This document shows, one piece after another, positions 5,509 through 51,681 of a DNA stretch of 51,681 bases. Origin of the DNA: a virus (lineage: Duplodnaviria; Caudoviricetes); IMG/VR virus record IMGVR_UViG_3300013767_000215, positions 1 to 51,681 of that record; one strand, 5' to 3'. Within the stretch, counting starts at the first letter, position 1; the number at the start of each line of letters is the position of its first letter. Below the pieces are notes generated by a model. It was given only the letters and a program-made list of their open reading frames with translations. It was not told where the DNA came from and did not search any database. Made by a program: the position numbers and the translations under genes.

Positions 5509-6251
5509 AGTCCGGTGCGGTTGAGACGCCAGGAAGAGGAGTCGAGGACCACGGAGTCCGCGTTGTTCTGCAGCCAGAGGCGCGTCTGCAGGTTGATGTT
5601 CTGGGTGGCGAGATTGACGGCGACCTGGCCGCGCAGCTGCAGCCAGTTGGCGGTCTCGTTCAGGTCCACCGTGGTGATCAGGGTGTGCGGGGCGTTGTTG
5701 TTGACGATCAGCCGGGTGCGGACGACCACACTGCCGGTGACGCCGGCGTCGAAGTTGGCCAGCAGCGAACCGCTGATGTCGGCGTCGACGCAGGCGCGCA
5801 GGTACTTGATGCCATGGGTGGCACCCTGCGTGATATAGGCTTGGATCACGCCTTCGACGATGTCGTTGGGCTGCAGCGTGCCGGCGGCGATCGTGCGCGA
5901 GTCCACCACTGTTTCGGCGATGGTGGAGTTGTACGATGCGGCGGGGTTGGCGGCGCCGCTCCACGGCGGCAGGATCGCGGCGCCGGCCTCGGCAAACCGG
6001 AACAAGACCCAATGCGCCGCATCGAGCGCAGGGTCCGCCTGGGCATTGTTGATGGCAGCGCTGCACTTGTAGATGGCACCGCTGCCACTGCGTGCCAGCT
6101 GCGGCGGCGCGTAGTTGCCGCCGGCGATGAAGTCAGGCACATCGCCAGTGGTATAGCCCTGGAACGTATCCCGATGCACGCGCGAGAAATTGGCGTTGAG
6201 TCCGGCGGCGACGCCGGCCGTCATCCTCGTCAGGAAGGTGAAGAGACTCAT
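5505..6251 (-). CDS. Hypothetical tail-associated protein
   Basis: 248-aa ORF coupled to the fibre gene in the tail-fibre cluster. Confidence 0.6.
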   Translation of the reverse strand: MSLFTFLTRMTAGVAAGLNANFSRVHRDTFQGYTTGDVPDFIAGGNYAPPQLARSGSGAIYKCSAAINNAQADPALDAAHWVLFRFAEAGAAILPPWSGAANPAASYNSTIAETVVDSRTIAAGTLQPNDIVEGVIQAYITQGATHGIKYLRACVDADISGSLLANFDAGVTGSVVVRTRLIVNNNAPHTLITTVDLNETANWLQLRGQVAVNLATQNINLQTRLWLQNNADSVVLDSSSWRLNRTGL

Positions 6252-36262: not shown

Positions 36263-36476
36263 CCACCCTAATCGAGGCCGCCGGGACACCCCGGCGGCCA
36301 ATCCCGCACCCGAAGCAATCAAAGCGGCTCGCGAAGCCGCTGGATTGACGCAGGCTGAGGCCGGCGCTCTCCTGCACTCTGGAGAGCGCTCGTGGCAAGA
36401 CTGGGAGCGCGGCGAACGCCGAATGCATCCGGCGTTCTGGGAGCTATTCCAGATCAAATCCAAGCGCGCGCGTTGA
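36255..36476 (+). CDS. XRE-family HTH protein (73 aa)
   Basis: IKAAREAAGLTQAEAGALL....RSWQDWERGERRMHPA.WELF. Confidence 0.85.
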   Translation: MPNHPNRGRRDTPAANPAPEAIKAAREAAGLTQAEAGALLHSGERSWQDWERGERRMHPAFWELFQIKSKRAR

Positions 36477-37777
36477 CCGACATCCTCAACCTTCCGGGCT
36501 TGGCCGTAGATCCTGCTCGCACCCGCGAGGACGGCACGGCCATCACCATAGGCGTGGCGCGCCGGCCGAAACCGGATTGGTGCTGCAACCACTGCGCGGC
36601 GCCGGACCTGGTGCCGAACGGCAGCCGCACCGTGAGCTATGCCGACCTGCCCGTCAGGGGTAAGCCGGTGACCCTGGAGTGGCAGCGCCAGCGCTACCGC
36701 TGCACCGCCTGCGGGAAGTCCACGCCGGACCGCCATGAGGGGCTGCACGACGATTTCCTCATGACGGAGAGGCTCTATGACTGGATCGGCGCCAGGTGCC
36801 TGAAAACCACCTTTGCGGCGGTCGCAGCGGACGTGGGCCTGGACGAGCGCTCCATCCGCCGAGTGTTCGAGCACTGGGCTGATCTGAAGCTCAAGGGGCG
36901 GCAGGTCGACACGCCGCGCTGGCTGGGCGTGGACGAGGTGCACCTGCTGCACGCCGCCCGGGGCATCCTCTGCGATATCCAGGAGAAGGCCCTGATCGAC
37001 ATGCTGCCCACCCGCAGCCAGACCGCTATGGGCCGGCGCATCATGGCGATGCCAGGTCGGGACCGCGTTGAGGTGGTGGCGATGGACATGTGGGGACCCT
37101 ATCGCCGGATCGCAGACGAGCTGCTGCCGCAGGCCACCGTCGTTGTGGACAAGTGGCACGTCACCAAGTACGCCGACCTCGGCATGGAGACCATCCGCAA
37201 GGCCCACCGCGCCAGCCTGACGCCGCTGATGCGCCGCCGCCTGGTGAAGGACCGCTTCCTGCTGCTGTCCCGAGGCCACCGGCTGAGCCCTGAGCAGCGG
37301 ATGATCATGCAGACTTGGACGAACACCTTCCCCGAGCTGGCCGCCGCCTACGAGGCCAAGGAAGCCTTCTACGCGATCTACGACCAGGCTGACCGCGACA
37401 CCGCCCTGTCGGCCTGCGAAGCCTGGGAGGGCAACCTGACGCCCAACATGCGGCTGGCCTTCGGTCCTCTGCTCAGCGCTCTGCGCAACTGGCGAGACCC
37501 CATCTTCAACTACTTCGACAACCGGGCCACCAACGCCTACACCGAAGCCATGAACGGACTGGTCAAGATCGCCAACCGGGCAGGCAGGGGCTACAGCTTC
37601 GACGTGTTGAGGGCTCGAATGCTGCTGTCCAGGGATGCTGTGAAGTACGCCAGCACCCCGACCGGCACAGCGCCCTACGGCGTCTCTGAAAGCCCCGCCG
37701 GCCAGTACATTCCAACCCTGACTGATCAACTCATTCATGGGCAGTTAGGCTTCGTTCCAACCGGATTTGCCGGATAA
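36473..37777 (+). CDS. ISL3 transposase
   Basis: Zn finger C..C/RYRC..C, LGVDE, AMDMWGPY, VVDKWHV, TNAYTEAMN motifs; TTG start overlaps HTH stop. Confidence 0.92.
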   Translation: MTDILNLPGLAVDPARTREDGTAITIGVARRPKPDWCCNHCAAPDLVPNGSRTVSYADLPVRGKPVTLEWQRQRYRCTACGKSTPDRHEGLHDDFLMTERLYDWIGARCLKTTFAAVAADVGLDERSIRRVFEHWADLKLKGRQVDTPRWLGVDEVHLLHAARGILCDIQEKALIDMLPTRSQTAMGRRIMAMPGRDRVEVVAMDMWGPYRRIADELLPQATVVVDKWHVTKYADLGMETIRKAHRASLTPLMRRRLVKDRFLLLSRGHRLSPEQRMIMQTWTNTFPELAAAYEAKEAFYAIYDQADRDTALSACEAWEGNLTPNMRLAFGPLLSALRNWRDPIFNYFDNRATNAYTEAMNGLVKIANRAGRGYSFDVLRARMLLSRDAVKYASTPTGTAPYGVSESPAGQYIPTLTDQLIHGQLGFVPTGFAG

Positions 37778-38128: not shown

Positions 38129-38362
38129 TCAGGCGGCCTCCGCTTGGGGTGCCTCACCGAAGATGTCCGGCCGCATTTGGTAGCGGGTTACCTTGCCTTC
38201 GCTGCCCGTTTCGATTCCGAGGCAGCGGTTGGGCGGCACCACCATCCACTGGGAGACCGCCTGGGGAGTGATGGGCGGATCGAACATCCGCCCGACCGCG
38301 GCGGGGCCGCCAGCGCGGGCGATCAGGGCTTGTGTTTCGGCTTTGCGGGCTTCGTCGTCCAT
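38129..38362 (-). CDS. cro: Cro/YdaS-like repressor
   Basis: AGGPAAVGRMF..ITPQAVSQW..VPP.RC..IE....VTRYQMRPDIFG; divergent from cI. Confidence 0.85.
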   Translation of the reverse strand: MDDEARKAETQALIARAGGPAAVGRMFDPPITPQAVSQWMVVPPNRCLGIETGSEGKVTRYQMRPDIFGEAPQAEAA

Positions 38363-38374
38363 AGCAGCCCGAAG

Positions 38375-38439
38375 GGTAAGCGGCGCTTACCAATTGTGTC
38401 AAGCAACGCTTACTTGTCTGATGTAAGAAATACTTACAT
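38375..38439. promoter_or_regulatory. Three operators (GTAAG-N5-CTTAC) and leftward promoter between cro and cI
   Basis: GTAAGCGGCGCTTAC 38376..38390, TCAAGCAACGCTTAC 38399..38413, GTAAGAAATACTTAC 38423..38437; minus-strand TTGACA at 38397..38402. Confidence 0.8.
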
Positions 38440-40955: not shown

Positions 40956-41304
40956 CGCCGGCCTCGATCCGCTGCAGCTGCGCGTCGAGAAGATGGCGCT
41001 CGACTACATGGCGCAGGCCCTGCGCGACCACGAGCTGCGTCAGCGCCTTGCTCTGAGCTTGCGGGCGATGCGCCGGATCCTGCGCGCACTCGACCGCGTG
41101 AGCTTCGAGCCTGGCGCCCTGCCCGATGTTCAGCCGTCCTTGGTGCTCGGCGCCATTGCCAACATCGTCGACCAGGCCACACCTGCGGCCGCGGGCCTCG
41201 ACGGATTCCACCGCATCCGCTGGCAGCTCAGCCGCCAGTCCCACCGTTCCCGTCGCCGCACGCCGCTCGAGCAGCTGGCCGCCGGCGCGGATCTTCAGGA
41301 GTAA
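40948..41304 (+). CDS. Hypothetical protein
   Basis: GGAG RBS; overlapping operon. Confidence 0.55.
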   Translation: MADAGLDPLQLRVEKMALDYMAQALRDHELRQRLALSLRAMRRILRALDRVSFEPGALPDVQPSLVLGAIANIVDQATPAAAGLDGFHRIRWQLSRQSHRSRRRTPLEQLAAGADLQE

Positions 41305-41308
41305 GTTC

Positions 41309-42877
41309 ATGTCCGCAGACGGAAGCAGCATTGCCGAGGAAGTCCTGGTCGTTGCATTGACCGATATCATCCCTGACCCGCGCCAGCCGCGGCGCACCTT
41401 CGAGCCGGAGGCGCTGAAGGAGCTGGCAGATTCGATCAAGCGAGAGGGACTGTTGCAGCCGATCATCCTGCGCCCGCTGACGGCGCAGGACCAGGTCAAG
41501 GGCACCAAGCAGCTGCCGAAGTTCGTGATCGTCGCCGGCGAGCGGCGCTGGCGCGCTTCCGATCTTGCCGGCAATGCCACGATCCGCGCGCTCGTCCGGC
41601 ATGACCTACAGGCGGTCGACATCGATGTGCTGCAGCTGATCGAGAACCTGCAGCGCGAAGGCCTGCCGCTGGCAGAGGAAGCTGCGGCAGTCGGCCGCCT
41701 GGTGGAACTGGTCACCAAGCAGCTGCAGGACAAGCCGGATCCCGAGGGGCGATCGCCGCTGGAAGTGGTGGCGGCACGCCTTGGCAAGAAGGCGAAGTCC
41801 TGGGTGAGCCTGCGAGCCAACGTCATGAACGTGCCCGACGCCGTGAAGAGACTGGTGGTCGACGGAACCCTGCACGACGTGCAGGTGATCAATGCTCTCG
41901 GCAATCTGCACCAGATCGATCCGGAAGAGGCGCAGGAGCTGATCGAGCGCTACAAAAACCCCTCCCGTTGGGATCCGGCGCCGACTCGTGAGGATGTGAC
42001 GGAGAGTTTGCGCCATGCCAAGCAGCGGGTCGAGGACGAGGCGAAGGACAAGCGCGACAAGGCTGCCGCCAAGAGCGACCCAAAGGCCATCGCCGAGAAG
42101 GAGCGCGAGAAGAAGCAGAAGGCGGCCGACAAGAAGCGCAACGACAGCATCAAGCTGATCAACCAGGCGATCGAGCAGCGAGTCGACGAGCTGACGCCGG
42201 CCTTCAACATCGCCCTCGGCTTCAAGAAGCCTCAGAAATCGACGTATGGCTGGGGCTATGGGATCCCGGTCGAGATCCGCGGACAGAAGTTCAGCAAGTA
42301 CAGTGGCGGCAAGATCCCGGATCAGGTCGACCAAACCAGTTTTGACCTGCATCTGAACAAGGGCGGCACGACCGTCGCCGCCAAGATCATCGAACTACTG
42401 CCGAAGACGATGAAGCACTCCTTCTACATCGAGGAAATGCCCGATGGCATCACGCTCGAGCAGATGCAGAAGCTGCAGGAGATCTTCCCCAAGCTCGAAT
42501 TCCGCACCGATTTCACGCTCGACGGTGCGGCGATGCAGCTGCTGCTCGGCAAGGTGCAGGGCAACGTTTCCCATGGGAAACAGGGCGCCAAGGTAAAACC
42601 GGCCGATAAGCCGGACAAGAACGCCAACAGCCGCGCCGCTGACGGCGACACCGTCACCAGCTTCCTCGAGGCTTGCACCCAGGAGAAGGACGGCGCCCAG
42701 ATCACGGCCGCCGAAATGCGCGCCGCCTACGAGGCGTACTGCAAGCGCCATCACCTGATCCCGCTCTCCGCCAACGACAACCGCTATGGCGCCGGCATCC
42801 TGCCGTGGGTCGAGAAGAAGCGCACCAAGACGGGGTACGTCTACATCGGCCTGCAGCTGCTAGTGGAGGGCGAGTGA
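41309..42877 (+). CDS. ParB/KorB-family protein with C-terminal primase-associated wHTH-like domain
   Basis: PDPRQPRRTF...L.ELADSI...GLLQPI.LRP, IVAGERRWRA, IENLQRE, HTH VAARLGK..SWVS; C-terminal V.SFL..C.....Y..YC...KKRT..G..Y.GL.L. Confidence 0.88.
   Translation: MSADGSSIAEEVLVVALTDIIPDPRQPRRTFEPEALKELADSIKREGLLQPIILRPLTAQDQVKGTKQLPKFVIVAGERRWRASDLAGNATIRALVRHDLQAVDIDVLQLIENLQREGLPLAEEAAAVGRLVELVTKQLQDKPDPEGRSPLEVVAARLGKKAKSWVSLRANVMNVPDAVKRLVVDGTLHDVQVINALGNLHQIDPEEAQELIERYKNPSRWDPAPTREDVTESLRHAKQRVEDEAKDKRDKAAAKSDPKAIAEKEREKKQKAADKKRNDSIKLINQAIEQRVDELTPAFNIALGFKKPQKSTYGWGYGIPVEIRGQKFSKYSGGKIPDQVDQTSFDLHLNKGGTTVAAKIIELLPKTMKHSFYIEEMPDGITLEQMQKLQEIFPKLEFRTDFTLDGAAMQLLLGKVQGNVSHGKQGAKVKPADKPDKNANSRAADGDTVTSFLEACTQEKDGAQITAAEMRAAYEAYCKRHHLIPLSANDNRYGAGILPWVEKKRTKTGYVYIGLQLLVEGE
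42566..42581. repeat. Palindrome GTTTCCCATGGGAAAC, copy 7 (inside parB)
   Basis: Exact 16-bp palindrome in an interdomain linker. Confidence 0.9.
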
Positions 42878-43332
42878 TGGATCCGGTCCATCCGTTCCTA
42901 CGGCAGCGCGTGAAGCTGCTGAAGGTCGTGCGCTTCGACCCGGCCGTGCGTGGCTACGACGCGCCACGCCTCCTGGTCGACCCGCCGCGGCCGCTCCGGC
43001 TGCGCCAGGTAATGCTGATGGCGACGGCGGCGATCGCCCTGGGAGTGGTGGCGGCCCAGGTGGTCGGTGCCGGGCCGGCGGCGCCGCGCGGTCGCCAGCC
43101 GGTGATCGGTAGCGCGCGCAATGCGGCGATCGGCTTCATCGCGCTTACCGCGGAGCAGGGGGGCTGCCCATCCGGCCAGTTGCGCGCGTACACCACGGCC
43201 GGCGGCGCGGCGCCGGCGGAAGCCTCCTGCTGGCGCAGGCAGGGCACCCAGGTGCTGGTGCTCGACCGCCGCGGCGGACAGAGCAGCTATCCGGCTGACA
43301 AATTCGGCCTGGTGGCGGAGCAGCGGCCGTGA
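42877..43332 (+). CDS. Single-TM hypothetical protein
   Basis: GGAGG RBS; VMLMATAAIALGVVAAQVV segment. Confidence 0.55.
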   Translation: MDPVHPFLRQRVKLLKVVRFDPAVRGYDAPRLLVDPPRPLRLRQVMLMATAAIALGVVAAQVVGAGPAAPRGRQPVIGSARNAAIGFIALTAEQGGCPSGQLRAYTTAGGAAPAEASCWRRQGTQVLVLDRRGGQSSYPADKFGLVAEQRP

Positions 43333-43673
43333 GCGCGGCGGTCTCGTCTGTAGGTCTGGTGCAGGGCCTGGCGCGTTTCGTCGCCGCCGTGCGTTCGGCC
43401 GCGCGTCGCATTGTCTGGCCCGAGGCGCCGCGCGCTGTCGCGCACCAGCTGGCTGAACATGAGCTGGTGCAGGGCTGGCTGCGCACCATGTTCCACGCCG
43501 GCGCCGGCGCGCCCGGCACCACCCTCGACGACATGCTGTGGCAGGCGCGCCTCGAGCAGACGCTGAACGGCATCCTGCAGGAGTACCGCGAGGGCCGCGC
43601 GCAGACGCCGTTCGAGATGACTCTGGCGGAATCGCTGGAATACGTGGCGCAGACCTACGGCGGCCGGCGCTGA
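43329..43673 (+). CDS. Hypothetical protein
   Basis: GTGA overlap; operon packing. Confidence 0.55.
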   Translation: MSAAVSSVGLVQGLARFVAAVRSAARRIVWPEAPRAVAHQLAEHELVQGWLRTMFHAGAGAPGTTLDDMLWQARLEQTLNGILQEYREGRAQTPFEMTLAESLEYVAQTYGGRR

Positions 43674-43676
43674 GCC

Positions 43677-43994
43677 ATGGCGACCGGCGCGCAGCGGGAG
43701 GAGCGGCAGGCACCCGGCAAGGGCGAGCGGCAGTTCCTGACCGTGCTCGAGCTGCGCCGCACGCCGGACGAGTTCGCCGAGTTCGCTAAGTGCCTGCCAG
43801 CGGACCGCGAGTTCCTCTCCGCGTTGCAGATGTGCTTCCGGGAGCCGCAGAGCGGCCACTGGGGTGTGCTGTACCACACGCTGTGCGGCGCCGCCGAGCG
43901 CTATGCCATCCGCCGCGCCACTGCGGACATGCGCAGGGAGCTCGAGGCGGCGCAGGAACTTCCCCTTTTCGAAACCGATACCACGAGGCAGTGA
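43677..43994 (+). CDS. Hypothetical protein
   Basis: Operon packing. Confidence 0.5.
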   Translation: MATGAQREERQAPGKGERQFLTVLELRRTPDEFAEFAKCLPADREFLSALQMCFREPQSGHWGVLYHTLCGAAERYAIRRATADMRRELEAAQELPLFETDTTRQ

Positions 43995-43996
43995 CC

Positions 43997-44323
43997 ATGG
44001 TTGCCCTTCCCCTGATCCACAAGTGCGGCGCGCAGGTCGACCACACGGTCGTTTCCTCGGGCGAACCTTTCGGCCGCCTGGTGGTGGCGTTTTCCGACTC
44101 GCAGACCGACGACCCGCTCAGCGTGTGCCCGAAGTGCGGCGCGCCGCTGTACGAGGCCTTCGTCGCCGGCGACTTCAAGCCGCTGCAGGTGAAGCCGACG
44201 GCGCCGAGCGCGCGGCGCACGGGCGAGGCCCAGCGCGGCCGGGTGCGCGACGGAGCTGCGAAGGCGATCGCCAAGATGATCGATGGCGCGCTGCAGCGGC
44301 GGGCGGCGAAGGCGGCGGCCTGA
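43997..44323 (+). CDS. Zinc-ribbon protein
   Basis: HKCG and CPKCG motifs; GAGG RBS. Confidence 0.6.
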   Translation: MVALPLIHKCGAQVDHTVVSSGEPFGRLVVAFSDSQTDDPLSVCPKCGAPLYEAFVAGDFKPLQVKPTAPSARRTGEAQRGRVRDGAAKAIAKMIDGALQRRAAKAAA

Positions 44324-44332
44324 TCGCCCGCC

Positions 44333-44617
44333 ATGCCGCCGCGCAAGCGCAACCGTCGCCGTGAGCTCGAGCGCCAGGAGGAAGGGCAGGGGCCGATCCT
44401 GCTCCTGGCCAAGAACATCATGGAGCAGCTCACCGTGCGCGGCGTGATGCCGCTGGAGGACCTGCGCGAGCGGCTCTGCGTGGCCAGCGAGACGCGGATG
44501 AAGGCGGCGATCGACGAGCTGCGCGGCGCACGCCTGATCCAGGTGAGCGAGGGCAGGGATCTGCTGGTCAACCTGGTCGGCGAGCGCCGGCCGTATTTCC
44601 CGAGGAACGCAGCATGA
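44333..44617 (+). CDS. Putative winged-HTH protein
   Basis: IMEQL...G.M.LEDL.ERL......MK.AIDEL....LI pattern. Confidence 0.55.
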   Translation: MPPRKRNRRRELERQEEGQGPILLLAKNIMEQLTVRGVMPLEDLRERLCVASETRMKAAIDELRGARLIQVSEGRDLLVNLVGERRPYFPRNAA

Positions 44618-44859
44618 AACTGCCATGGTGGGCCTATCGCCTGAAGCTGCGCCTGAAGTGGCTACTGGTGAGGCGGTCCGAGCTGATCAATCAGATCACT
44701 GAGGTCGAGATCTACTTGCTCGACTGTTCGCGTGGGAAAAAGCCGCAGCCGACCCGCGCAGTGTGCCGCATCCTCTCCCTGCGACTCGGAACACCGAAAC
44801 AATATTGGTCCGAGTACATCAAGGATGCCGCACTGGCAGCTGCAGAGGCACCGCAGTGA
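44614..44859 (+). CDS. Hypothetical basic protein
   Basis: GAGGA RBS; ATGA overlap. Confidence 0.55.
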   Translation: MKLPWWAYRLKLRLKWLLVRRSELINQITEVEIYLLDCSRGKKPQPTRAVCRILSLRLGTPKQYWSEYIKDAALAAAEAPQ

Positions 44860-45851
44860 GCGAGCTCCTGATTCAAGGCGATGAGCTGCTCGAGGAGCTG
44901 CTCCAGGGCGACGCCTGGGTCAGCACCGGCGCGCTGTTCCAGCGCAGCAGCTTCGAGAGCAAAGAGAAGTTCAGCGAGTGGCTGCAGCTGCTGAAGAACA
45001 AGAAGCAGCTGCAGATCCGCACTGGCGCCTTCGGCCTCGAGGTTGGTCTGCCGGGCACGCCGGCGCCGTCGGCCGAGCGCCCCGATGCGAAGCCCCCCAT
45101 CGCCCCCGCTGGCGCCGGGCCCATGCCGCCGCCGCTGACCGCGCCGGCGCCGATGCTGGAAGGCCCGGCGCGGATCCATGGCAAGCCGAACGACACGGCG
45201 CCGCGGCCGTGCTTCGTTGTGCCGTCGCCGGAGACGGAGGGGCAGCTGCGCTCAGAGTCGGATCGAGAGGCGGCCGAGGAGGATCCGCCGGCGCCTGTCG
45301 CACCTGCGCCGGCCGAGACGTCTGAAGCGGCCAACCACACACAGAGCGCGCCGCCGGCGCGTGCGGAGGATGAAACGATGCCCAAGAAGGCCCCCAAAAC
45401 GCCGGAGGAGCAGCGCGAGCTGATCCAAGGCCTGCTGCGCCAGTCCGCCTGGAAGACGGGCGAACTGATCCAGGCTACCGGCCTCGAACGAAACCAGCTA
45501 TATCCGATCTTGAAGAAAATGCAGAGCGACGGCGAGGTGAAGCTCGAGGGCACTGCTCGCGCCGCCACCTGGTCGATCCCCGGCGGTGGCAAGCCCGGCG
45601 CGATCGCCGCCGTCGACCAGGCGCGCAAGGCGGCGCGCAAGAACGGAGCCGGCGCCCCCGGCGTCCGCAACGCGGCTCCCCCGGCAACGATCACCGCAGC
45701 GCTAGACCAGCTGGCGCAACGCATCCGGCCGCGCCCGGTAGAGCGGCTTGAGCTGAAGCTGACCGTGATCGACCGCCTCGCCTCGATCGTCGACCCCACC
45801 ATTGCGGCCGTGCTGGCCGAGATCCGCGTCGACCTGGCGCCCGCAACCTAG
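44856..45851 (+). CDS. Protein with Pro-rich linker and wHTH-like domain
   Basis: GTGA overlap; ELIQATGLERNQLYPILKKM...GEV..G wHTH pattern. Confidence 0.6.
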   Translation: MSELLIQGDELLEELLQGDAWVSTGALFQRSSFESKEKFSEWLQLLKNKKQLQIRTGAFGLEVGLPGTPAPSAERPDAKPPIAPAGAGPMPPPLTAPAPMLEGPARIHGKPNDTAPRPCFVVPSPETEGQLRSESDREAAEEDPPAPVAPAPAETSEAANHTQSAPPARAEDETMPKKAPKTPEEQRELIQGLLRQSAWKTGELIQATGLERNQLYPILKKMQSDGEVKLEGTARAATWSIPGGGKPGAIAAVDQARKAARKNGAGAPGVRNAAPPATITAALDQLAQRIRPRPVERLELKLTVIDRLASIVDPTIAAVLAEIRVDLAPAT

Positions 45852-45860
45852 GAGAGTTTC

Positions 45861-46284
45861 ATGAGCACAACGCAACAGGCGGCTGCCGCCTCTACGTTCC
45901 TGACGCCCGCGCGCGTCATCCCGCAACTGATGTGGACCATGACACTGAACGACGGCCAACGCGTCGACGACTATGACGCCGCAGAGGAGCTGATCTCGGC
46001 CCTCAACGCCACGTCCTTCGGCGGCTTCAACGACTGGCGCTTGCCGACGGTCGAGGAGTTGTTCATGCAAGGCGATCGCAGCCGCTTTAACCCGGCCGCG
46101 GATCCCGAGCAGTTCCCAGACACCAAGTCCGGCTTCTACTGGTCGTCCACCCCGGTTGCTGAGGATCCGGACGACTACGCCTGGGGCGTCTACTTCGGCG
46201 ACGGCTGCACGTTCATCGCCGTCCGCGGGCCTCGGCTTCGTCCGCGCGGTGCGCTCGGTGTCGCCGGCGTCCCCCGGTCAGTAA
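45861..46284 (+). CDS. DGR target 1, DUF1566/Lcl domain (frameshifted in VR1; reads through to 46772)
   Basis: LMWT, LN...FGGFNDWRLPTVEEL, FYWSST, AWGVYF motifs; original stop TAA 46282..46284 now out of frame. Confidence 0.88.
46142..46282 (+). repeat. DGR variable repeat VR1
   Basis: Matches TR with 19 substitutions at TR adenines, a 2-nt deletion, and one G>C near the 3' end. Confidence 0.95.
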
Positions 46285-46328
46285 CTCGGCCTTCGATCTT
46301 TCCTCGTATCCCTATCAGGAGTCATTCT

Positions 46329-46772
46329 ATGAGCAGAACCAAAAGCGCCGCCAAGGCAGCCGCATCGGCGAGCGTAGCCGTCGTGAACATGCCGGCGCGC
46401 ACTATCCCCGAGTTGTTGTGGACGGCTGCGACGTTATGCAATGGCAGCGCCGTCAGCTTTGCCAAGGCGCAAGCCGCAGTGCAGGACCTCAATACCGCCG
46501 CCTTCGGCGGATTTACCGACTGGCGCTTGCCGACGCGAGAGGAGCTGCTGAGCCTGGTCGACCTGGGCCGCTATCGGCCGGCGATCGACACCAGCAAGTT
46601 CCCCGACACCAAGTCCGGCTTCTACTGGTCGTCCACCCCGGATGCTGAGAGTCCGGTCGCCTACGCCTGGGGCGTCTTCTTCTACGACGGCCACACGGTC
46701 ATCAGCCGCAGCGACGGCGGCGGCTTCGTCCGCGCGGTGCGCTCGGTGTCGCCGGCGTCCCCCGGTCAGTAA
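46329..46772 (+). CDS. DGR target 2, DUF1566/Lcl domain (147 aa)
   Basis: Own AGGAG RBS at 46317..46321; GFTDWRLPTREELLSLVD, FYWSST, FVRAVR motifs. Confidence 0.9.
   Translation: MSRTKSAAKAAASASVAVVNMPARTIPELLWTAATLCNGSAVSFAKAQAAVQDLNTAAFGGFTDWRLPTREELLSLVDLGRYRPAIDTSKFPDTKSGFYWSSTPDAESPVAYAWGVFFYDGHTVISRSDGGGFVRAVRSVSPASPGQ
46628..46770 (+). repeat. DGR variable repeat VR2
   Basis: 143 nt; 17 substitutions at TR adenines plus the 3' G>C. Confidence 0.95.
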
Positions 46773-46800
46773 CTCGGCCTTCATCCTTCAGGAGCCAATC

Positions 46801-47595
46801 ATGAACGGCCTCACCTTCAATCACGTTTCACAGATCAGCCTGCAGCGCGCCATGCTGTGGCATCCCCGCGGCCTCAATGAGTGGTCCGAGGCTGACTGGT
46901 CCAATGCCATGGCCGGCGAGGCCGGCGAGGTCTGCAATGCCGTCAAAAAGCTGCGCCGGATACAGTGCGGCCTGGCGCAGTCCAAGGGCCCCAAGACAGA
47001 GGCGGAGGCCAAGGCCGAGATCGCCAAAGAGATCGGCGACACCTACATCTACCTGGACCTCCTGACCGCGCGGCTGGGGCTGCGCATCGAGGACTGCATC
47101 CGCGATACCTTCAACCGGGTCAGCGAGCGGGAAGGCTTCCCGCAGCGCCTGGAGGCGCCGGCGGCAGCGGCGTTGCTGCAGGCCGGCCCAAGGATCGCCA
47201 CCCGCCTTGTTGCGCGCGACGACGGCACCGTTGTAGACCAGCTCAACGGTTTGCAATGGCAGAGCCAGGACGACGGCACCAACCGCAAGTTCGCCGACGC
47301 CGAGAAGTATTGCAAGGAGCTGCGTCTGGCCGGCTTCACGGACTGGCGCCTGCCGTCCGAGGAGGAACTGCTGAGCATTGTCGACCGCAGCGTTTACAAG
47401 CCGGCGATCGACAAGAAGTTGTTTCCCGGCACGCGTTCGGACTTCTACTGGTCGTCAACCCCGGTTGCTGAGTATCCGGACGACTGCGCCTGGGGCGTCT
47501 TCTTCAGCTACGGCAGCACGTTCATCTACTACAGCGACGGCCTCGGCTTCGTCCGCGCGGTGCGCTCGGTGTCGCCGGCGTCCCCCGGTCAGTAA
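46801..47595 (+). CDS. DGR target 3: MazG-like NTP pyrophosphatase fused to DUF1566/Lcl domain (264 aa)
   Basis: AGGAG RBS; AGEAGEVCNAVKK...KEIGD..IYL.LL (MazG-like); DGTVVD..NGLQWQ, GFTDWRLP..EEL.SIVD (DUF1566). Confidence 0.88.
   Translation: MNGLTFNHVSQISLQRAMLWHPRGLNEWSEADWSNAMAGEAGEVCNAVKKLRRIQCGLAQSKGPKTEAEAKAEIAKEIGDTYIYLDLLTARLGLRIEDCIRDTFNRVSEREGFPQRLEAPAAAALLQAGPRIATRLVARDDGTVVDQLNGLQWQSQDDGTNRKFADAEKYCKELRLAGFTDWRLPSEEELLSIVDRSVYKPAIDKKLFPGTRSDFYWSSTPVAEYPDDCAWGVFFSYGSTFIYYSDGLGFVRAVRSVSPASPGQ
47451..47593 (+). repeat. DGR variable repeat VR3
   Basis: 143 nt; 16 substitutions at TR adenines, one C>A at the 5' edge, and the 3' G>C. Confidence 0.95.
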
Positions 47596-47614
47596 TCGGC
47601 CTTAGAGCTTAAGA

Positions 47615-48049
47615 ATGTCAGGCCAGCTGCCCAGCATCGTCCAGGTTGCCCAGTGCGTGCAGCGCGAGGTGGACCTGGCGGTGCGCCGCTTCCGAAAGGA
47701 TGACCGCTACGACGTGGGCACGCGGATCCGCGCCTGCGTCACGGAAGTGCGGCGGCTGGGCTACCGGGCCTGGAATGCGCCGGAGCGGCGCGCGCAGCTG
47801 CTGCAGGACTTGGTCGACGCAGTCGACGATCTGAAGTTGGAGCTGCAGCTGGCGCGCGAGACGAAGGCCTTTCCCAGCGCCGGCGAATTCGAGGCAATCT
47901 GGAGATCCACGGAAGAGCTGGGCACGCAGGCCGGCGCCTGGCGCAATAGCGTTACCCCGAAAGGCCAGAGCCCTGCCCCGCCCAAGGCGCAGCAGGGGAG
48001 TGCCAGGAAACTGAGTACCCGCACCGCCTCGCAGGAGGCTCAGGGATGA
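47615..48049 (+). CDS. avd: DGR accessory variability determinant (Avd-like four-helix bundle)
   Basis: RF.K..RY..G..IR, LK..LQLA, EELG.QAGAW pattern; position between target and TR/RT. Confidence 0.82.
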   Translation: MSGQLPSIVQVAQCVQREVDLAVRRFRKDDRYDVGTRIRACVTEVRRLGYRAWNAPERRAQLLQDLVDAVDDLKLELQLARETKAFPSAGEFEAIWRSTEELGTQAGAWRNSVTPKGQSPAPPKAQQGSARKLSTRTASQEAQG

Positions 48050-49443
48050 CGAAGCCGCGCTACCTCCGCAGGAGCTGCGCGGCCGGGTCGAAAGCGCGCG
48101 GGTCAGCGTCGTCCACCCCGGATGCTGAGAATCCGGACGACTACGCCTGGGGCGTCAACTTCAACAACGGCAACACGAACATCAACAACAGCGACAACAA
48201 CGGCTTCGTCCGCGCGGTGCGCTCGGTGTCGCCGGCGTCCCCCGGTGAGTTTCAGGGTGCCGCGCAGGTTCGCCTGCACGATGTCTATTGCGCCTGGCGC
48301 CGGGCCCGGCGGCGGAAGCGGCCCAGCGCCAACCGCCTGCGCTTCGAGGCCCGCTGGCTGGATCGCTTGCCGCAGCTGCAGCGCCAGCTTGCGCGCGGCA
48401 CCTGGTCGCCGGCGCCGTCCGCCTGCTTCATCGCCCAGCGGCCAAAGGCGCGCGAGATCCACGCGCCCGACTTCGCCGACCGCATCGTGCACCACCTGGT
48501 GGTGCCGGAGCTGGAGCGAATCTGGGAGCGGCGCTTCATCCACGACTGCTACAGCAACCGGAAGGGCAAGGGCACCCATGCCGCCGTCGACCGGCTACAG
48601 CAGTTCATGCGCCAGGTCCATAGCGGCCAGGGCGGCGGCTGGTACCTGCAGCTCGACGTGCGCAACTTCTTCAACTCGATCGACCGGCGCCAGCTATGGG
48701 CCGAGCTGCGCCGGGTGCTGGAGCGCGTCCAGGCACCGGTATGGCTGCAGCGCATCGTCCATGCCTTGCTGCGCCGATCCGCAGCGCGCCAGGGCGTGCG
48801 CTACTTCGCCAGCGGCCGCGAGCGCGCCAAGGTGCCGACCTACAAGCGCCTGGAGAACGCAGCGCCCGGCTGCGGGCTGGCGATCGGTAACCTCAGCTCG
48901 CAGTTCTTCGCCAACGTCTGCTTGGATGCCCTGGACCAGTTCGCCAAGCACGTCCTGAAGGCGCAGCGCTACCTGCGTTACGTCGACGACGTGGTGCTGG
49001 TGCACCAGGACCGCGAGCAGCTGCTGGCCTGGCAGCGGCAAATCGAGTCCTTCCTGCATGAGCGCCTCGGCCTGGAGCTGAAGCCGCAGCGGATCCTCAA
49101 GCCACTGATGGCCGGCTGCGATTTCCTGGGCTACATCGTCTATCCCACCCACCGCCTGGTGCGCCGGCGCGTGGCTGCGCATGCGCGCGAAGCCCTGCAG
49201 GCCTGGGAGCAGCGGCACGTGCGCGGCGAGGTTTGCAGGGGCACGCCTGAGGCCTTCCGCGCCGTGCGGAGCATCTGGAGCAGCTACGAGGGGCACCTGA
49301 GCCATGCGAGCAGCTGGCTGCTGCGGCAGCGGCTGCTGGAGGAGTTTCCCTGGCTGCCTGCGGTGATCGTGCCACGGCGGTTTCATTGGCGGCTGGAGGG
49401 GCACGCCGTAACGATTCCCTGGAGGAGCCTGATCGATGGCTGA
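48046..49443 (+). CDS. DGR reverse transcriptase
   Basis: AW..ARR.K, KAREIHAPDFADRIVHH, KGTHAA, LDVRNFF.SI, GLAIGNLSSQFFAN, YLRYVDD, DFLGY motifs. Confidence 0.95.
   Translation: MTKPRYLRRSCAAGSKARGSASSTPDAENPDDYAWGVNFNNGNTNINNSDNNGFVRAVRSVSPASPGEFQGAAQVRLHDVYCAWRRARRRKRPSANRLRFEARWLDRLPQLQRQLARGTWSPAPSACFIAQRPKAREIHAPDFADRIVHHLVVPELERIWERRFIHDCYSNRKGKGTHAAVDRLQQFMRQVHSGQGGGWYLQLDVRNFFNSIDRRQLWAELRRVLERVQAPVWLQRIVHALLRRSAARQGVRYFASGRERAKVPTYKRLENAAPGCGLAIGNLSSQFFANVCLDALDQFAKHVLKAQRYLRYVDDVVLVHQDREQLLAWQRQIESFLHERLGLELKPQRILKPLMAGCDFLGYIVYPTHRLVRRRVAAHAREALQAWEQRHVRGEVCRGTPEAFRAVRSIWSSYEGHLSHASSWLLRQRLLEEFPWLPAVIVPRRFHWRLEGHAVTIPWRSLIDG
48108..48250 (+). repeat. DGR template repeat (TR)
   Basis: AAC-rich copy (9 AAC plus 1 AAT codons; 31 adenines) of the three VRs. 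Confidence 0.95.
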
Positions 49444-49783
49444 GATAATTCCTGCCTGGTGGGGCATGGCCAAGCCGGGCTCACCTTACCGTCCGAGCAA
49501 TGGTACGGAGGGCGAATGCTTCTTCTCCGCCTGGTGCAGAAAATGCGCGCGCGACAAGGCGATGAGCGAAGGTAAGAATCTCGACGACTGCTCCGAACCA
49601 GAAGTGTGCAGGATCATCGCCGACACCTTCGCCTATGACGTGAGCGATCCAAACTACCCGAAGGAATGGATCCACGACTCGCGCGGCTTTCCGAGCTGCA
49701 CTGCGTTCATTCCGCTCGGCGAAGCGATCCCGCTGCAGCGCTGTACCCGCACGCTCGACATGTTCCCCGAGGGCGCGACATGA
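49436..49783 (+). CDS. Cys-rich conserved phage protein
   Basis: YRPSNGTEG.CF...WC..C.RD...C.II..EW.....P.CTAF pattern. Confidence 0.7.
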   Translation: MAEIIPAWWGMAKPGSPYRPSNGTEGECFFSAWCRKCARDKAMSEGKNLDDCSEPEVCRIIADTFAYDVSDPNYPKEWIHDSRGFPSCTAFIPLGEAIPLQRCTRTLDMFPEGAT

Positions 49784-50070
49784 AATGGGTCAAGCTTCGC
49801 CGCTACCTTGAGCTTTCCGGCGACACCGAGGATGCTGTGCAGAAGAAGGTGGCGCGCGGCCTCTGGCTCGACGGCCTTCACTACAAGCAGGCGCCGGACG
49901 GCGTGCGCTGGTACAACATCGAGGCGATTGAGCAATGGGTGGAGCGCGGAACAATTGGCGACCAGGAGCTGCTGATGCGGCAGACGGCGTCCGGATCCGG
50001 GAGTTCGGGACGGGGCCGCGGATCGAGATCGACTTCCGCTTCAAGGGAATCCGCTGCCGCGAGCGCCTGA
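49780..50070 (+). CDS. xis: Excisionase
   Basis: KWVKL.RY.ELSG.T..AV..K...G.WL.G.HY..APDG..WYNIE.I.QWVE; overlaps int. Confidence 0.85.
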   Translation: MKWVKLRRYLELSGDTEDAVQKKVARGLWLDGLHYKQAPDGVRWYNIEAIEQWVERGTIGDQELLMRQTASGSGSSGRGRGSRSTSASRESAAASA

Positions 50071-51227
50071 AGAACACCGAGCTGACGGCTGCAAACTGGA
50101 AATACGCTGTCCGCCTGCGCGCAGAAGTACTCAACGCGATCGATCGCGGCACCTTCAAGTACGGTGACTACTTCCCCGGCTCCAAGATGGGCCGCGTCTT
50201 CGGCCACTCGGTATCGAACGCCACCGTAGGCGAGCTGCTCAAGCGGTGGATCGGGCTTTGCGAGATTGCAGTCGAGACCGGCAACATGTCCCCGTCGACG
50301 CTCTCCGGCTACAAGCGCATCGTCGACGGCATCCTGGAGCCCGAGTTCGGCACCCTGCGCGCGGCCGACCTGACCCAGGGCCATTTCAAGCAGTTCATCC
50401 TCAAGCAGGGCTGCACCGCCAAGACGATCCGCAACCGGCTCTCTCCGCTGCGCCTGGCGCTGGATGATGCCGTCGACGACGGTGATATCACCGCCAATCC
50501 GCTGCATCAGCTCAACGTCCGCAAGCAGATCAAGAAGGTGGCCAAGGCCAGCACCTTTGAGGTCGACCCGTTCGACCTTAAGGAGCGCGCGGCGCTGCTC
50601 GAGGCCTGCCGCAACGACGAAGAACGGGACATGTACATCTTCTGGTTCGAGACTGGCCTGCGCCCAGGCGAGCACATCGCAGCGGCATGGCCGAAGGTCG
50701 ACTGGATTCACAACAAGATCCTGATCGACACCAACCTGGTGGAACACGTCGAGAAGGGACCGAAGACCGAAGCCGGCGTACGCCTGATCGAGCTGTCGCC
50801 GGCGGCGATCGCTGCGTTGACGCGGCAGAAGGCGTGCACCTGGCTCGCCGGCGGCCGCATCTGGCGCACACCCTATCCGCTGATGGTCTCAGGGCGCCGC
50901 CGCGGCGAGGCGCAGACCGACTGGGAGAGCGATGCCCAGCTGCGCAAGCGCAGCTTCTATCCGGTGCTGAAGCGCGCCGGCGTACGCCACCGGAACATGT
51001 ACCAGATCCGCCATACCTACGCGTCGACGCACGCGAGCAAGGGCGCCAACCTGTTCTGGCTCGCCGAGCAGATGGGCCATGAGACGATCGAGATGATCAT
51101 CCGCCACTACGCCCGCTGGATCCCCGGCTTGGCCGAGGCGGAAGAGGGCCGCAAGGCCCTGGCTGGTCACGTGGCGGTCACGCAGAAAACAGGCGCGCAG
51201 ATTCTGCGTTTCAAAACAAGACGCTAG
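49935..51227 (+). CDS. int: Tyrosine integrase with N-terminal arm-binding domain
   Basis: IEIDFRFKGIRCRE arm domain; TGLRPGE, PKT.AG.R, YQIRHTYAS, QMGH, HYARW. Confidence 0.93.
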   Translation: MGGARNNWRPGAADAADGVRIREFGTGPRIEIDFRFKGIRCRERLKNTELTAANWKYAVRLRAEVLNAIDRGTFKYGDYFPGSKMGRVFGHSVSNATVGELLKRWIGLCEIAVETGNMSPSTLSGYKRIVDGILEPEFGTLRAADLTQGHFKQFILKQGCTAKTIRNRLSPLRLALDDAVDDGDITANPLHQLNVRKQIKKVAKASTFEVDPFDLKERAALLEACRNDEERDMYIFWFETGLRPGEHIAAAWPKVDWIHNKILIDTNLVEHVEKGPKTEAGVRLIELSPAAIAALTRQKACTWLAGGRIWRTPYPLMVSGRRRGEAQTDWESDAQLRKRSFYPVLKRAGVRHRNMYQIRHTYASTHASKGANLFWLAEQMGHETIEMIIRHYARWIPGLAEAEEGRKALAGHVAVTQKTGAQILRFKTRR

Positions 51228-51240
51228 AGTGCGCGGGCCA

Positions 51241-51267
51241 AGGGTTCAAATCCCTCAACCGGCACCA
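51241..51267 (+). other. att site: tRNA 3'-end fragment (likely tRNA-Thr)
   Basis: AGGGTTCAAATCCCTCAACCGGCACCA = T-arm, acceptor 3' strand and CCA; no 5' half present. Confidence 0.75.
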
Positions 51268-51318
51268 TCGAGTCCGCAATCAAGGTCGATGCCGACCCAG
51301 GATGAGTGAGGGTTAACG

Positions 51319-51356
51319 CATACAAATATTTGTATATTTATATAAATATTTGTATG
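51319..51356. promoter_or_regulatory. Tandem palindromic operator upstream of toxin
   Basis: ATACAAATATTTGTAT 51320..51335 (perfect) and ATATAAATATTTGTAT 51340..51355. Confidence 0.7.
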
Positions 51357-51363
51357 ATGGCTC

Positions 51364-51681
51364 ATGAAAGGCGTGACTTGGCTGGGCAGCAGCAAGCAAG
51401 ACCTGATGTCCTTCCCGGCCACGGTGCGGCAGGCCGCAGGCTTCCAGCTTCACCTGGTGCAGCATGGCGACGAGCCGTCCGACTGGAAGCCGATGTCGTC
51501 GATCGGCGCGGGTGTGCGCGAAATCCGCATGCGTGACGAAACCGGCGCATTCCGCGTGATCTACGTCGCCAGCATTTCCGACACGGTGTACGTGTTGCAC
51601 GCCTTTCAGAAGAAGTCGCAAAAGACCGCGAAGAAGGATCTGGAACTGGCGCGGGAGAGGTTCAGGCAGATCAGGCGGTGA
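51364..51681 (+). CDS. RelE/HigB (Gp49-like) type II toxin, outside the prophage
   Basis: WLGSS..DL..FP, GFQL..VQ.G..P.DWKPM..IG.GV.EIR, FRVIY, LHAFQKK.QKT motifs. Confidence 0.88.
   Translation: MKGVTWLGSSKQDLMSFPATVRQAAGFQLHLVQHGDEPSDWKPMSSIGAGVREIRMRDETGAFRVIYVASISDTVYVLHAFQKKSQKTAKKDLELARERFRQIRR

What the first reader, a model, noticed from the sequence alone, without database searches (positions are those of the whole stretch)
45861..49443. Three-target DGR in the phage early arm diversifying small non-structural DUF1566 proteins
Seen: one TR (48108..48250), avd, an RT with YVDD and GNLSSQ motifs, and three VRs carrying 19, 17 and 16 adenine-specific substitutions. Known: this is the signature of DGR mutagenic retrohoming, and the classic phage DGR (Bordetella BPP-1) diversifies a tail receptor-binding protein. 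Here I found no VR in either fibre gene. The targets lack signal peptides and lie in the operator-controlled early operon beside xis/int. Inference: the phage makes a hypervariable panel of intracellular binders, for example against host defence or regulatory proteins, rather than switching tropism.
Basis: partly seen in the sequence, partly recalled or inferred. Interest (0 to 1): 0.92.

Follow-up and report, generated by a model that had tools for sequence, protein, structure and literature searches.

The report
Prophage DGR diversifying three non-tail proteins
A temperate phage carries an intact-looking mutagenic retroelement that hypermutates three small lectin-fold binding proteins encoded among its early genes instead of its tail fibres, and one of them is fused to a nucleotide-hydrolysing enzyme, which suggests that these variable proteins work inside the cell.

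Summary
TR 48108-48246 matches three variable repeats (VRs) with 19, 17 and 16 substitutions at TR adenines: 52 of 53 substitutions, where A is 31 of 139 TR bases (P about 5e-33). avd, an unbroken RT ORF and VR-specific 3' tails are present.

- VR1 carries a 2-nt deletion. It frameshifts target 1 and fuses it in frame to target 2.
- VR3 has one non-A change.
- Target 3 is not a bare DUF1566 protein. It is a MazG-like NTP pyrophosphohydrolase fused to an Lcl_C (DUF1566) lectin-fold domain, and the fusion is conserved in two other elements.

The layout is not unique. Small leaderless lectin-fold targets, avd, TR and RT sit in the early arm in all three cultured phages I opened (Burkholderia Magia, Pseudomonas Haboob, Shewanella QDWS) and in three uncultured relatives; xis/int or a recombinase gene follows in four of these six (not confirmed for Haboob or L001). 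The Magia genome paper already notes short-ORF targets.

Comparison with an 83%-identical relative shows each VR tracking its own TR at 61 of 62 informative sites. This indicates homing after the two elements diverged.

A non-virion, cytoplasmic role is favoured by position, missing leaders and the enzyme fusion, but it is not shown. I rate it a new variant of a known kind, of moderate interest.

The parts
45861..46286 (+). Target 1 (Lcl_C/DUF1566), own AGGAG RBS. The frame is broken by a 2-nt deletion in VR1 near 46227/46228, so the open frame runs on to 46772 as a fusion with target 2.
   Evidence: deletion reproduced in Logan contigs
46142..46278 (+). VR1: 19 A-site substitutions plus a 2-nt deletion
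46329..46772 (+). Target 2, 147 aa, leaderless Lcl_C domain protein. The model has a C-type-lectin fold.
46628..46766 (+). VR2: 17 substitutions, all at TR adenines
46801..47595 (+). Target 3, 264 aa: MazG-like NTP pyrophosphohydrolase domain (about residues 1-117), variable linker, then Lcl_C domain
47451..47589 (+). VR3: 16 A-site substitutions plus one C>A
46279..46294 (+). VR-specific tail (CAGTAACTCGGCCTTC-like) after the G+C-rich shared end. It recurs at 46767-46782 and 47590-47604 and is absent after the TR, so it is an IMH-like element.
47615..48049 (+). avd (accessory variability determinant)
48108..48246 (+). Template repeat: 139 nt, 31 A, 9 AAC codons in the VR frame. It lies in frame inside the ORF that starts at 48046.
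48046..49443 (+). Reverse transcriptase ORF. Its ATG overlaps the avd stop. The RT domain proper begins at about 48265.
49777..50070 (+). Excisionase
49935..51227 (+). Tyrosine integrase
51226..51267 (+). tRNA 3'-end-like fragment, probable att core and right prophage border (read by eye)
   Evidence: no whole tRNA found
38129..38362 (-). CI-like repressor. Three GTAAG-N5-CTTAC-like palindromes at 38376-38438 face the + strand early genes.

Best explanation
This is a complete and probably active diversity-generating retroelement. It sits at the distal end of the early, rightward gene arm of an integrated temperate myovirus.

Mechanism (established for DGRs, inferred here): TR RNA is reverse-transcribed by RT with Avd. 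Adenines are miscopied, and the cDNA replaces the last 139 nt of three Lcl_C (DUF1566, C-type-lectin fold) genes. Each of these genes ends in a VR-specific IMH-like tail.

The three products are not tail parts. They are leaderless accessory proteins made with the early genes, and they most likely act in the cytoplasm as variable ligand binders. Target 3 tethers a MazG-like NTP pyrophosphohydrolase to such a binder. Target 1 is at present knocked out or fused by a deletion inside its VR, which a new homing event could overwrite.

My estimates: about 0.97 that it is a DGR, about 0.65 that the targets are non-virion and cytoplasmic, and about 0.45 that they serve the phage during infection or induction.
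For: Shown:
- 52 of 53 TR-VR substitutions are at adenines.
- A mutagenesis of the 20 A-bearing TR codons can yield no stop codon, and the repertoire is about 10^17.8 peptides.
- The RT ORF is unbroken and avd is present.
- An IMH-like tail follows each VR but not the TR.
- Against relative L010 (RT 83% aa identity), the two TRs differ at 14 sites. All five VRs carry their own TR's base at 61 of 62 informative comparisons and the other TR's base at 0 of 62.
- Lcl_C hits are 4e-52 and 9e-30. The target 2 model (pLDDT 80) best matches the Legionella Lcl C-terminal domain, E 6e-5.
- Position: the targets follow ParB-like and wHTH-like early genes on the + strand, behind a CI-like repressor, with xis/int next. 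Target 1 starts 9 nt after the upstream ORF, and each target has its own AGGAG.
- Tail genes are all on the - strand at 6.3-18.6 kb.
- Target PHROGs are 'unknown function'.
- None of 36 targets or homologues has a lipobox. Only 1 of 36 has a 19-residue KD mean of 1.6 or more, and that stretch is internal.
- The target 3 N-domain is 47-71% identical to 24 stand-alone 'NTP pyrophosphatase' proteins and keeps E40, E43, E77 and D80. Its matches in cultured phages are annotated as pyrophosphohydrolase or MazG-like in 10 of 12 records.
- The fusion is conserved in P0002/L010 and P0003.
- The same early-arm layout is found in 3 of 3 cultured phages opened and in L001, L002 and L010.

Inferred: the cytoplasmic site of action, the timing of expression and the role.
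Against: - There are no expression or localisation data.
- My leader test is a crude hydropathy and lipobox heuristic, not SignalP. Target 2 has an Ala/Val-rich N-terminal patch (KD10 2.00), and 9 of 36 proteins have a patch of 2.0 or more.
- No VR polymorphism was seen in the only holding run. That run is kept as contigs, which drop rare variants, and it is probably the source sample.
- Target 1 is frameshifted.
- Avd is below the Pfam and NCBIfam cut-offs.
- No hairpin was found downstream of the VRs.
- No sigma-70-like promoter was found and no clear + strand terminator. A single early operon is therefore plausible but unproven. In Magia a terminator is annotated just before the first target.
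- The MazG assignment to solved structures is weak (best E 0.005), and the AlphaFold model of target 3 failed.
- The host contig beyond the window could hold further VRs and could not be scanned.
Confidence: 0.55

Rival explanations
1. Classical tropism switching. The small lectin-fold proteins are late-assembling adhesins or fibre-tip accessory proteins that join the virion non-covalently. The DGR therefore varies host range as in BPP-1.
For: The best-studied phage DGR does this (established knowledge, recalled). Roux 2021 assigns most viral targets of several clades to tail proteins (PMC8144416, section 9 read). In the Pseudoalteromonas ACA phages the diversified antireceptor is a separate polypeptide (PMC10612066, passages). 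Lectin folds are surface binders in most known cases.
Against: The targets lie 38 kb from the tail module, on the opposite strand, among early genes next to xis/int. They have no N-terminal virion-anchoring domain and are 141-147 aa domain-only proteins. Target 3 carries a nucleotide-hydrolysing enzyme. Their PHROGs are 'unknown function'. The early-arm position is conserved in six other elements.
Confidence: 0.15
2. Lysogen-protective sensors. The cassette is a moron expressed from the prophage. The variable lectin domains recognise proteins of superinfecting phages, and the MazG-like domain of target 3 acts as a nucleotide-depleting effector. This would resemble the DGR-diversified cytoplasmic sensors proposed for cellular conflict systems.
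For: The cassette sits at the integrase-proximal end of the prophage. Cytoplasmic DGR targets fused to STAND NTPases are predicted in bacteria (PMC10907252, passages). A cytosolic recognition role is hypothesised in PMC10053308 (passages). A terminator annotated just upstream of the first target in Magia would fit a separate transcription unit.
Against: None of the 8 non-RT proteins tested has a PADLOC family; the RT gets generic RT models only. Target 1 starts 9 nt after the upstream early ORF, which suggests co-transcription under the repressor and so silence in the lysogen. No promoter-like site was found, although the scan is weak for this G+C content. Stand-alone homologues of the MazG-like domain are ordinary phage genes, seen in 17 viral contigs and 12 cultured-phage records.
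Confidence: 0.15
3. Decaying cassette. The DGR was active in the past but is now drifting, and the targets have no current function.
For: There is a frameshift in VR1 and one non-A change in VR3. No variants were seen in the contigs of the holding run.
Against: The RT, avd, TR and two targets are intact. VRs follow their own TR at 61 of 62 sites that diverged from L010. Non-A drift amounts to 1 substitution in 415 VR bases. A deletion inside a VR can be overwritten by the next homing event (inference).
Confidence: 0.1

Closest known systems
Bordetella phage BPP-1 DGR (mtd-avd-TR-brt)
   Same: It has the same parts and order: target with a 3' VR, avd, TR and RT. It shows adenine-specific TR-to-VR differences, an AAC-rich TR, a C-type-lectin fold target and a temperate phage host. 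The BPP-1 details are recalled; the window features come.
   Different: BPP-1 has one VR, in a tail-fibre protein encoded with the tail genes. Here there are three VRs in Lcl_C-class proteins in the early arm next to xis/int, none in the tail genes. The BPP-1 RT was not among the 25 listed hits (Bordetella phage records are among the 120 matches, all below 60% identity).
DGRs of Burkholderia phage Magia, Pseudomonas phage Haboob and Shewanella phage vB_Sb_QDWS
   Same: The RT is about 40-41% identical over 68% of the query. The cassette lies in the early and recombination arm; xis/int lies downstream in Magia and an integrase in QDWS, while none is annotated in the Haboob stretch I opened. Two small ORFs of 118-194 aa lie directly upstream of avd and carry VRs. 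Their mismatches to the TR are A-only: Magia 8 and 11, QDWS 15 and 11, Haboob 13. All six ORFs give sub-threshold Lcl_C hits. The Magia paper names short ORFs as targets (PMC7883833).
   Different: They have two targets rather than three, and no MazG fusion. For Haboob's second VR-like copy my script recovered only the VR-VR pairing. Their targets fall in phrog_4245 only, whereas the window's best family is phrog_16004.
Locus L010 (unnamed metagenome contig), the nearest relative found
   Same: RT is 83% identical at the protein level. It has the same MazG-Lcl_C fusion (73% identity), avd, a TR inside the RT ORF, xis and int. It also has an intact homologue of target 1.
   Different: It has two VRs (14 and 15 A-only mismatches). 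The target 1 homologue lies 4 kb upstream, before the ParB-like gene. There is no frameshift.
Legionella pneumophila DGR (LdtA) and the DUF1566 / CLec2 target class of Wu et al. 2018
   Same: The VR lies in a DUF1566-type lectin domain. About half of this class are short, domain-only proteins (PMC5758913, passages). The best structural match of target 2 is the Legionella Lcl C-terminal domain.
   Different: LdtA is a surface lipoprotein on a chromosomal island (PMC5758913 passage). The window's targets show no lipobox or leader in my heuristic and are phage-borne.
Cellular DGRs that diversify cytoplasmic STAND-NTPase or conflict-system sensors (Dore et al. 2024)
   Same: A lectin-fold VR domain predicted to be cytoplasmic is fused to a nucleotide-handling domain, and there are several targets per TR (PMC10907252, passages).
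   Different: Those are large multidomain proteins of multicellular bacteria, not 147-264 aa phage early proteins. A MazG-like partner is not mentioned there. No paper in the library links a DGR target to MazG: 4 papers hold both terms, of which 3 were listed and 1 read in passages, and that one treats the two topics separately.

Membership tests
Diversity-generating retroelement | TR/VR pair whose differences fall almost only at TR adenines | tested here: met
   52 of 53 substitutions at A over three VRs, with A at 31 of 139 TR bases, P 5e-33
Diversity-generating retroelement | Intact reverse transcriptase of the DGR type next to the TR | tested here: met
   Unbroken 465-aa ORF. RVT_1 2.9e-17, phrog_1423 6e-93. 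YVDD and GNLSSQ are visible. That the GxxxSQ motif marks DGR RTs is recalled, not tested.
Diversity-generating retroelement | Accessory protein Avd | tested here: met
   PHROG 'Avd protein of DGR' 4e-14. Pfam bAvd 8.2e-5 and NCBIfam NF033474 1.2e-7 are both below their curated cut-offs. Size and position are as expected.
Diversity-generating retroelement | VR at the 3' end of a gene encoding a C-type-lectin (or Ig) fold | tested here: met
   Lcl_C 4.3e-52 and 9.2e-30. Target 2 model pLDDT 80.4; top PDB hit 8q4e_A (Lcl C-terminal domain) E 6.1e-5, followed by C-type lectin-like domains.
Diversity-generating retroelement | IMH at the VR end differing from IMH* at the TR end, and a downstream hairpin | tested here: inconclusive
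   All three VRs share a 15-16 nt tail that the TR lacks, after a common G+C-rich stretch. No significant hairpin lies downstream (z-scores 0.2 to 1.2).
Diversity-generating retroelement | Evidence of homing activity | tested here: inconclusive
   Between lineages, VRs follow their own TR at 61 of 62 sites that differ from L010. Within the sample, no variant appears in contigs of the one holding run, which cannot show rare variants.
Tropism-switching phage DGR (BPP-1 Mtd type) | The target is a tail fibre or receptor-binding protein of the virion | tested here: not met
   No VR lies in the tail or fibre genes. Targets sit in the early arm. Target PHROGs are of unknown function. Virion proteomics is not testable here.
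MazG-like all-alpha NTP pyrophosphohydrolase (N-domain of target 3) | Sequence membership and conserved acidic metal-binding residues | tested here: met
   47-71% identity to 24 stand-alone homologues, several carrying PF03819 or PF12643. phrog_229 MazG-like 4.5e-6. Pfam MazG 0.0038, below cut-off. E40, E43, E77 and D80 are invariant; their role as metal ligands is recalled. PDB profile hits to RS21-C6 and DCTPP1 are weak (E 0.005). Enzyme activity was not tested.

The most novel reading that the evidence does not exclude
A clade of temperate proteobacterial phages uses a DGR to make hypervariable cytoplasmic binders expressed with the early genes, not to vary its tail. In this lineage one binder has captured the phage's MazG-like NTP pyrophosphohydrolase. 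The result would be an enzyme whose localisation or activation is re-targeted by mutagenic retrohoming. That would be a phage-side analogue of an antibody-enzyme fusion, used in phage-host or phage-phage conflict.
Probability: 0.3. Interest if true: 0.8.

Novelty: new variant of a known kind. Interest (0 to 1): 0.55.

Why it matters
Surveys since 2018 report that most DGR targets of temperate phages are leaderless lectin-fold proteins of unknown function, and what they do is still an open question. This locus gives that question a handle.

- The targets sit in a repressor-facing early arm.
- The arrangement recurs in phages that are in culture (Magia, Haboob, QDWS).
- One target is fused to an enzyme whose substrates exist only inside cells.

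If the variable domains do act in the cytoplasm, DGRs in phages would be more than host-range devices. The MazG fusion would then be a natural example of an enzyme joined to a programmable binder.

The comparison with L010 also gives a simple read-out of past homing that needs no population data: each VR follows its own TR.

Tried and rejected
Searches that found nothing:
- Megablast of 43000-51681 against phages found no match.
- blastn and tblastn of target 2 against phages found no match.
- The RT pattern scan of viral contigs found no relative.

Structure attempts:
- AlphaFold of target 3 with a 3-row alignment failed (pLDDT 36.9), so the model was not used.
- A 119-row alignment of mixed partial homologues was too ragged (1254 columns) and was not used.
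- phmmer of target 3 against the PDB gave 0 hits. A profile of the N-domain gave only weak hits.

Sequence features:
- The hairpin search downstream of the VRs found nothing above shuffles.
- The promoter scan found 0 sites against 1.5 expected, which is uninformative at this G+C content. Terminator-like sites on the + strand are weak.
- PADLOC gave no family for 8 of the 10 proteins tested, including both targets and avd. Only the RT matched, with generic RT models.
- The att search between the right end and the rest of the window found only a 14-nt match, taken as chance.

Reads:
- Only contigs were available, from a run that may be the source sample. No VR variant was seen.
- This gives no verdict on present activity. 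It shows only that the VR1 deletion is not peculiar to one assembler.
- The second run, X2, holds next to nothing of the stretch.

Whole-library phmmer of target 3:
- 33,136 representatives scored at E 0.001 or better.
- The 150 listed are dominated by giant multi-repeat DUF1566 proteins. Only the window's own cluster covers residues 1-264 in one stretch.
- Fusions ranked below the top 150 cannot be excluded.

Rejected ideas:
- The VR1 indel as an alignment artefact. The ungapped comparison breaks exactly there, and the downstream frame restores ...GLGFVRAVRSVSPASPGQ*.
- The 303-aa ORF as a designed tandem protein. Target 2 has its own RBS and ATG, and the open linker is only about 35 codons.

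Supplementary files of Wu 2018, Roux 2021 and Benler 2018 could not be seen. They may already list this clade of DGRs or its targets.

Full report
WHAT THE RECORD IS

The window is the whole record held (51,681 nt, one contig) and is treated as a virus record. The protein index lists the window's target 3 on a 93,000-nt contig, so the window is probably a provirus cut from a longer contig.

- The - strand from 0.3 to 35.4 kb carries a putative endolysin (Peptidase_M15_3, E 6e-5), a fibre and its assembly protein, baseplate genes, tape measure, sheath, major head protein, portal, large terminase, a primase/helicase and a methyltransferase.
- An IS-type transposase follows at 36392-37777.
- A CI-like repressor lies at 38129-38362 on the - strand. 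It faces three GTAAG-N5-CTTAC-like palindromes.
- From there a + strand arm runs to the integrase. It holds a ParB-like protein at 41126-42877, several unknown ORFs, the DGR, an excisionase at 49777-50070 (phrog 1.3e-11; DUF1233 3.6e-5) and a tyrosine integrase at 49935-51227.
- Directly after int, the sequence reads like the 3' end of a tRNA, although ARAGORN finds no whole tRNA. I take this as the att core and the prophage border. This is my reading by eye.

THE OBSERVATION

A four-copy repeat family is present. With TR 48108-48246:
- VR1 has 19 substitutions, all at TR adenines, plus a 2-nt deletion.
- VR2 has 17 substitutions, all at adenines.
- VR3 has 16 substitutions at adenines plus one C>A.

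That is 52 of 53 substitutions at A, where A is 31 of 139 TR bases (P 5e-33). In the VR frame the TR holds 9 AAC codons. None of its 20 A-bearing codons can mutate to a stop, and the repertoire is about 10^17.8 peptides.

Each VR is followed by a shared 15-16 nt tail that the TR lacks. This is IMH-like. No downstream hairpin stands out.

avd and the RT are intact and recognised. The RT ORF begins with an ATG that overlaps the avd stop and contains the TR in frame. The same holds in relative L010. A scan of both strands of the whole record with the non-A positions of the TR finds only these VRs.

1. The 2-nt deletion in VR1 shifts the frame. Target 1 loses its last strands, and the open frame runs into target 2, giving the 303-aa ORF 45861-46772. 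Logan contigs of the one run that holds this DNA tile the region with 0 differences. One of them is a 132-nt piece at depth 9.1 that spans the deletion. The 46-nt piece shared by all four copies has depth 48, against 8-13 for its neighbours. That run may be the source sample, so this result excludes an assembler quirk but not a population-level variant.
2. Each target has its own AGGAG and ATG.
3. Target 3 (46801-47595, 264 aa) is a fusion.
   - Its first ~117 residues are 47-71% identical to 24 stand-alone proteins that sources call NTP pyrophosphatase or that carry MazG Pfam families.
   - Most of those stand-alone proteins end at the FP(Q/E)RL motif, exactly where the window protein runs on into a linker and the Lcl_C domain.
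   - E40, E43, E77 and D80 are invariant.
   - Matches in cultured phages are annotated as pyrophosphohydrolase or MazG-like in 10 of 12 records.
   - Similarity to solved RS21-C6/DCTPP1-type enzymes is weak.
   - Two other full-length fusions exist: P0002, which is L010 (73% identity), and P0003, from a MAG named Sinimarinibacterium flocculans (52-54% identity).

RELATIVES AND ACTIVITY

L010 is an unnamed 9.4-kb metagenome contig with the same set of parts:
- an intact target 1 homologue;
- ParB-like and wHTH-like genes;
- the MazG-Lcl_C fusion;
- avd, TR, RT, xis and int;
- two VRs, with 14 and 15 A-only mismatches.

Its RT is 83% identical to the window's. The two TRs differ at 14 positions. 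At the positions where a VR's own TR is not A, the five VRs carry their own TR's base in 61 of 62 comparisons and the other TR's base in 0 of 62. This concerted change is what repeated TR-to-VR transfer predicts, so the system was active after the two phages diverged. Gene conversion of another kind cannot be formally excluded.

HOW COMMON THE LAYOUT IS

- Genome contigs gave 9 relatives of the RT out of 135 pattern matches. I annotated two of them.
  - L002 (Solilutibacter silvestris, 57% identity) has one VR gene upstream of RecT, YqaJ and a methylase. A second VR gene lies next to avd-RT, and a serine recombinase lies downstream.
  - L001 (an Opitutus MAG, 62% identity) has a ParB-like gene and two Lcl_C targets ahead of avd and RT, with a weak, sub-threshold phage-tail match (Phage-tail_3, E 1.3e-4) downstream.
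- Among 120 cultured-phage records with an RT match, all below 60% identity, I opened three from the ~41% group. These were Burkholderia phage Magia, Pseudomonas phage Haboob and Shewanella phage vB_Sb_QDWS.
  - All three place two small ORFs (118-194 aa), then avd, TR and RT, among recombination genes. xis/int or int follows downstream in Magia and QDWS; no integrase is annotated in the Haboob stretch I opened.
  - TR-VR mismatches are A-only. For Haboob's second copy my script recovered only a VR-VR pairing.
  - All six ORFs give sub-threshold Lcl_C hits and fall in a PHROG of unknown function (one search tested four of them).
  - The other 117 records were not opened, so I make no claim about them.

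LITERATURE

- The Magia announcement states that potential targets and IMH regions lie in 'relatively short reading frames' (PMC7883833, passages).
- Wu et al. 2018 define a DUF1566-type target class, of which about half are short, domain-only proteins. They also note non-adjacent targets within prophages (PMC5758913, passages).
- Benler et al. 2018 report 92 temperate-phage DGRs. Only five had BPP-1-like tail-fibre targets, the rest were of unknown function, and phage targets lacked TM regions and signal peptides (PMC6199706, passages).
- Roux et al. 2021 sort viral targets into 'structural' and 'unknown' (PMC8144416, section 9 read).
- Dore et al. 2024 predict cytoplasmic DGR targets in cellular conflict systems (PMC10907252, passages).
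- A search for 'diversity-generating retroelement' together with 'MazG' found 4 papers, 3 listed. The one I read in passages treats the two topics separately. Within this library I therefore found no description of a MazG-fused DGR target.

WHERE THE TARGETS ACT

For a cytoplasmic, non-virion role:
- early-arm position on the strand opposite to all structural genes;
- tight spacing to the upstream ORF (9 nt) and their own ribosome-binding sites;
- no lipobox in 36 of 36 targets and homologues, and a TM-like stretch in only 1 of 36, which is internal;
- PHROG families of unknown function;
- the enzyme fusion, whose substrates are intracellular.

Against, or open:
- the leader test is crude, and 9 of 36 proteins, target 2 among them, have a short hydrophobic N-terminal patch;
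- the promoter and terminator scans do not settle the transcription units;
- no expression or proteomic data exist;
- lectin folds are typically extracellular binders.

I put a non-virion, cytoplasmic role at about 0.65. The direction of benefit is open. Phage counter-defence or host takeover is somewhat favoured by the apparent repressor control, as against protection of the lysogen.

VERDICT

This is a real and probably active DGR. It belongs to a recurrent but little-studied clade of early-arm DGRs in temperate proteobacterial phages. It differs in having three targets, one currently frameshifted, and one fused to a MazG-like enzyme.

Noticed in passing
window 51226-51267: Directly after the integrase stop, the sequence looks like the 3' end of a tRNA (T-loop-like GGTTCAAATCC, ending CACCA). 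ARAGORN finds no whole tRNA in the window. It is probably the att core and the right prophage border.
   Followed up: partly
window 51270-51681: An AT-rich stretch is followed by a Gp49/HigB-like toxin-antitoxin gene (Pfam PF05973, 4.8e-28) that is cut by the window end. It probably lies outside the prophage.
   Followed up: partly
window 36392-37777: An IS-type transposase (phrog_5749, 2.5e-103) lies between the replication genes and the CI-like repressor. It is possibly a recent insertion into the prophage.
   Followed up: no
window 38376-38438: Three GTAAG-N5-CTTAC-like palindromes, spaced about 23 nt apart, lie between the CI-like repressor gene and the first + strand early ORF. They are candidate operators.
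   Followed up: partly
window 48046-48264; L010 5647-5865: The TR lies in frame inside the RT ORF, whose ATG overlaps the avd stop (ATGA). The TR may therefore be translated as an N-terminal extension of the RT. This is conserved in L010, and a paper describes the same for the Pseudoalteromonas ACA phages (PMC10612066).
   Followed up: partly
window 2638-6066 (- strand): A 1142-aa ORF next to the fibre genes has no PHROG or Pfam match. It may be a novel long fibre or a spurious high-G+C frame.
   Followed up: no
alignment A5: Many small DUF1566 proteins from unrelated contigs share the same C-terminal tail...VRAVRSV(S/A)PASPGQ*. This fits a DNA-level constraint from a shared IMH. Several also carry a conserved helical N-terminal module (MQTLSNELRSVIE...) of unknown role.
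   Followed up: no
window 44763-45851 and 44333-44617; L010 3047-3505; Magia gp48: A gene that looks like, or is annotated as, a winged-helix regulator lies just upstream of the first adjacent DGR target in the window, L010 and Magia. In the window and L010 the likeness is judged by eye only, and no family hit was found.
   Followed up: no
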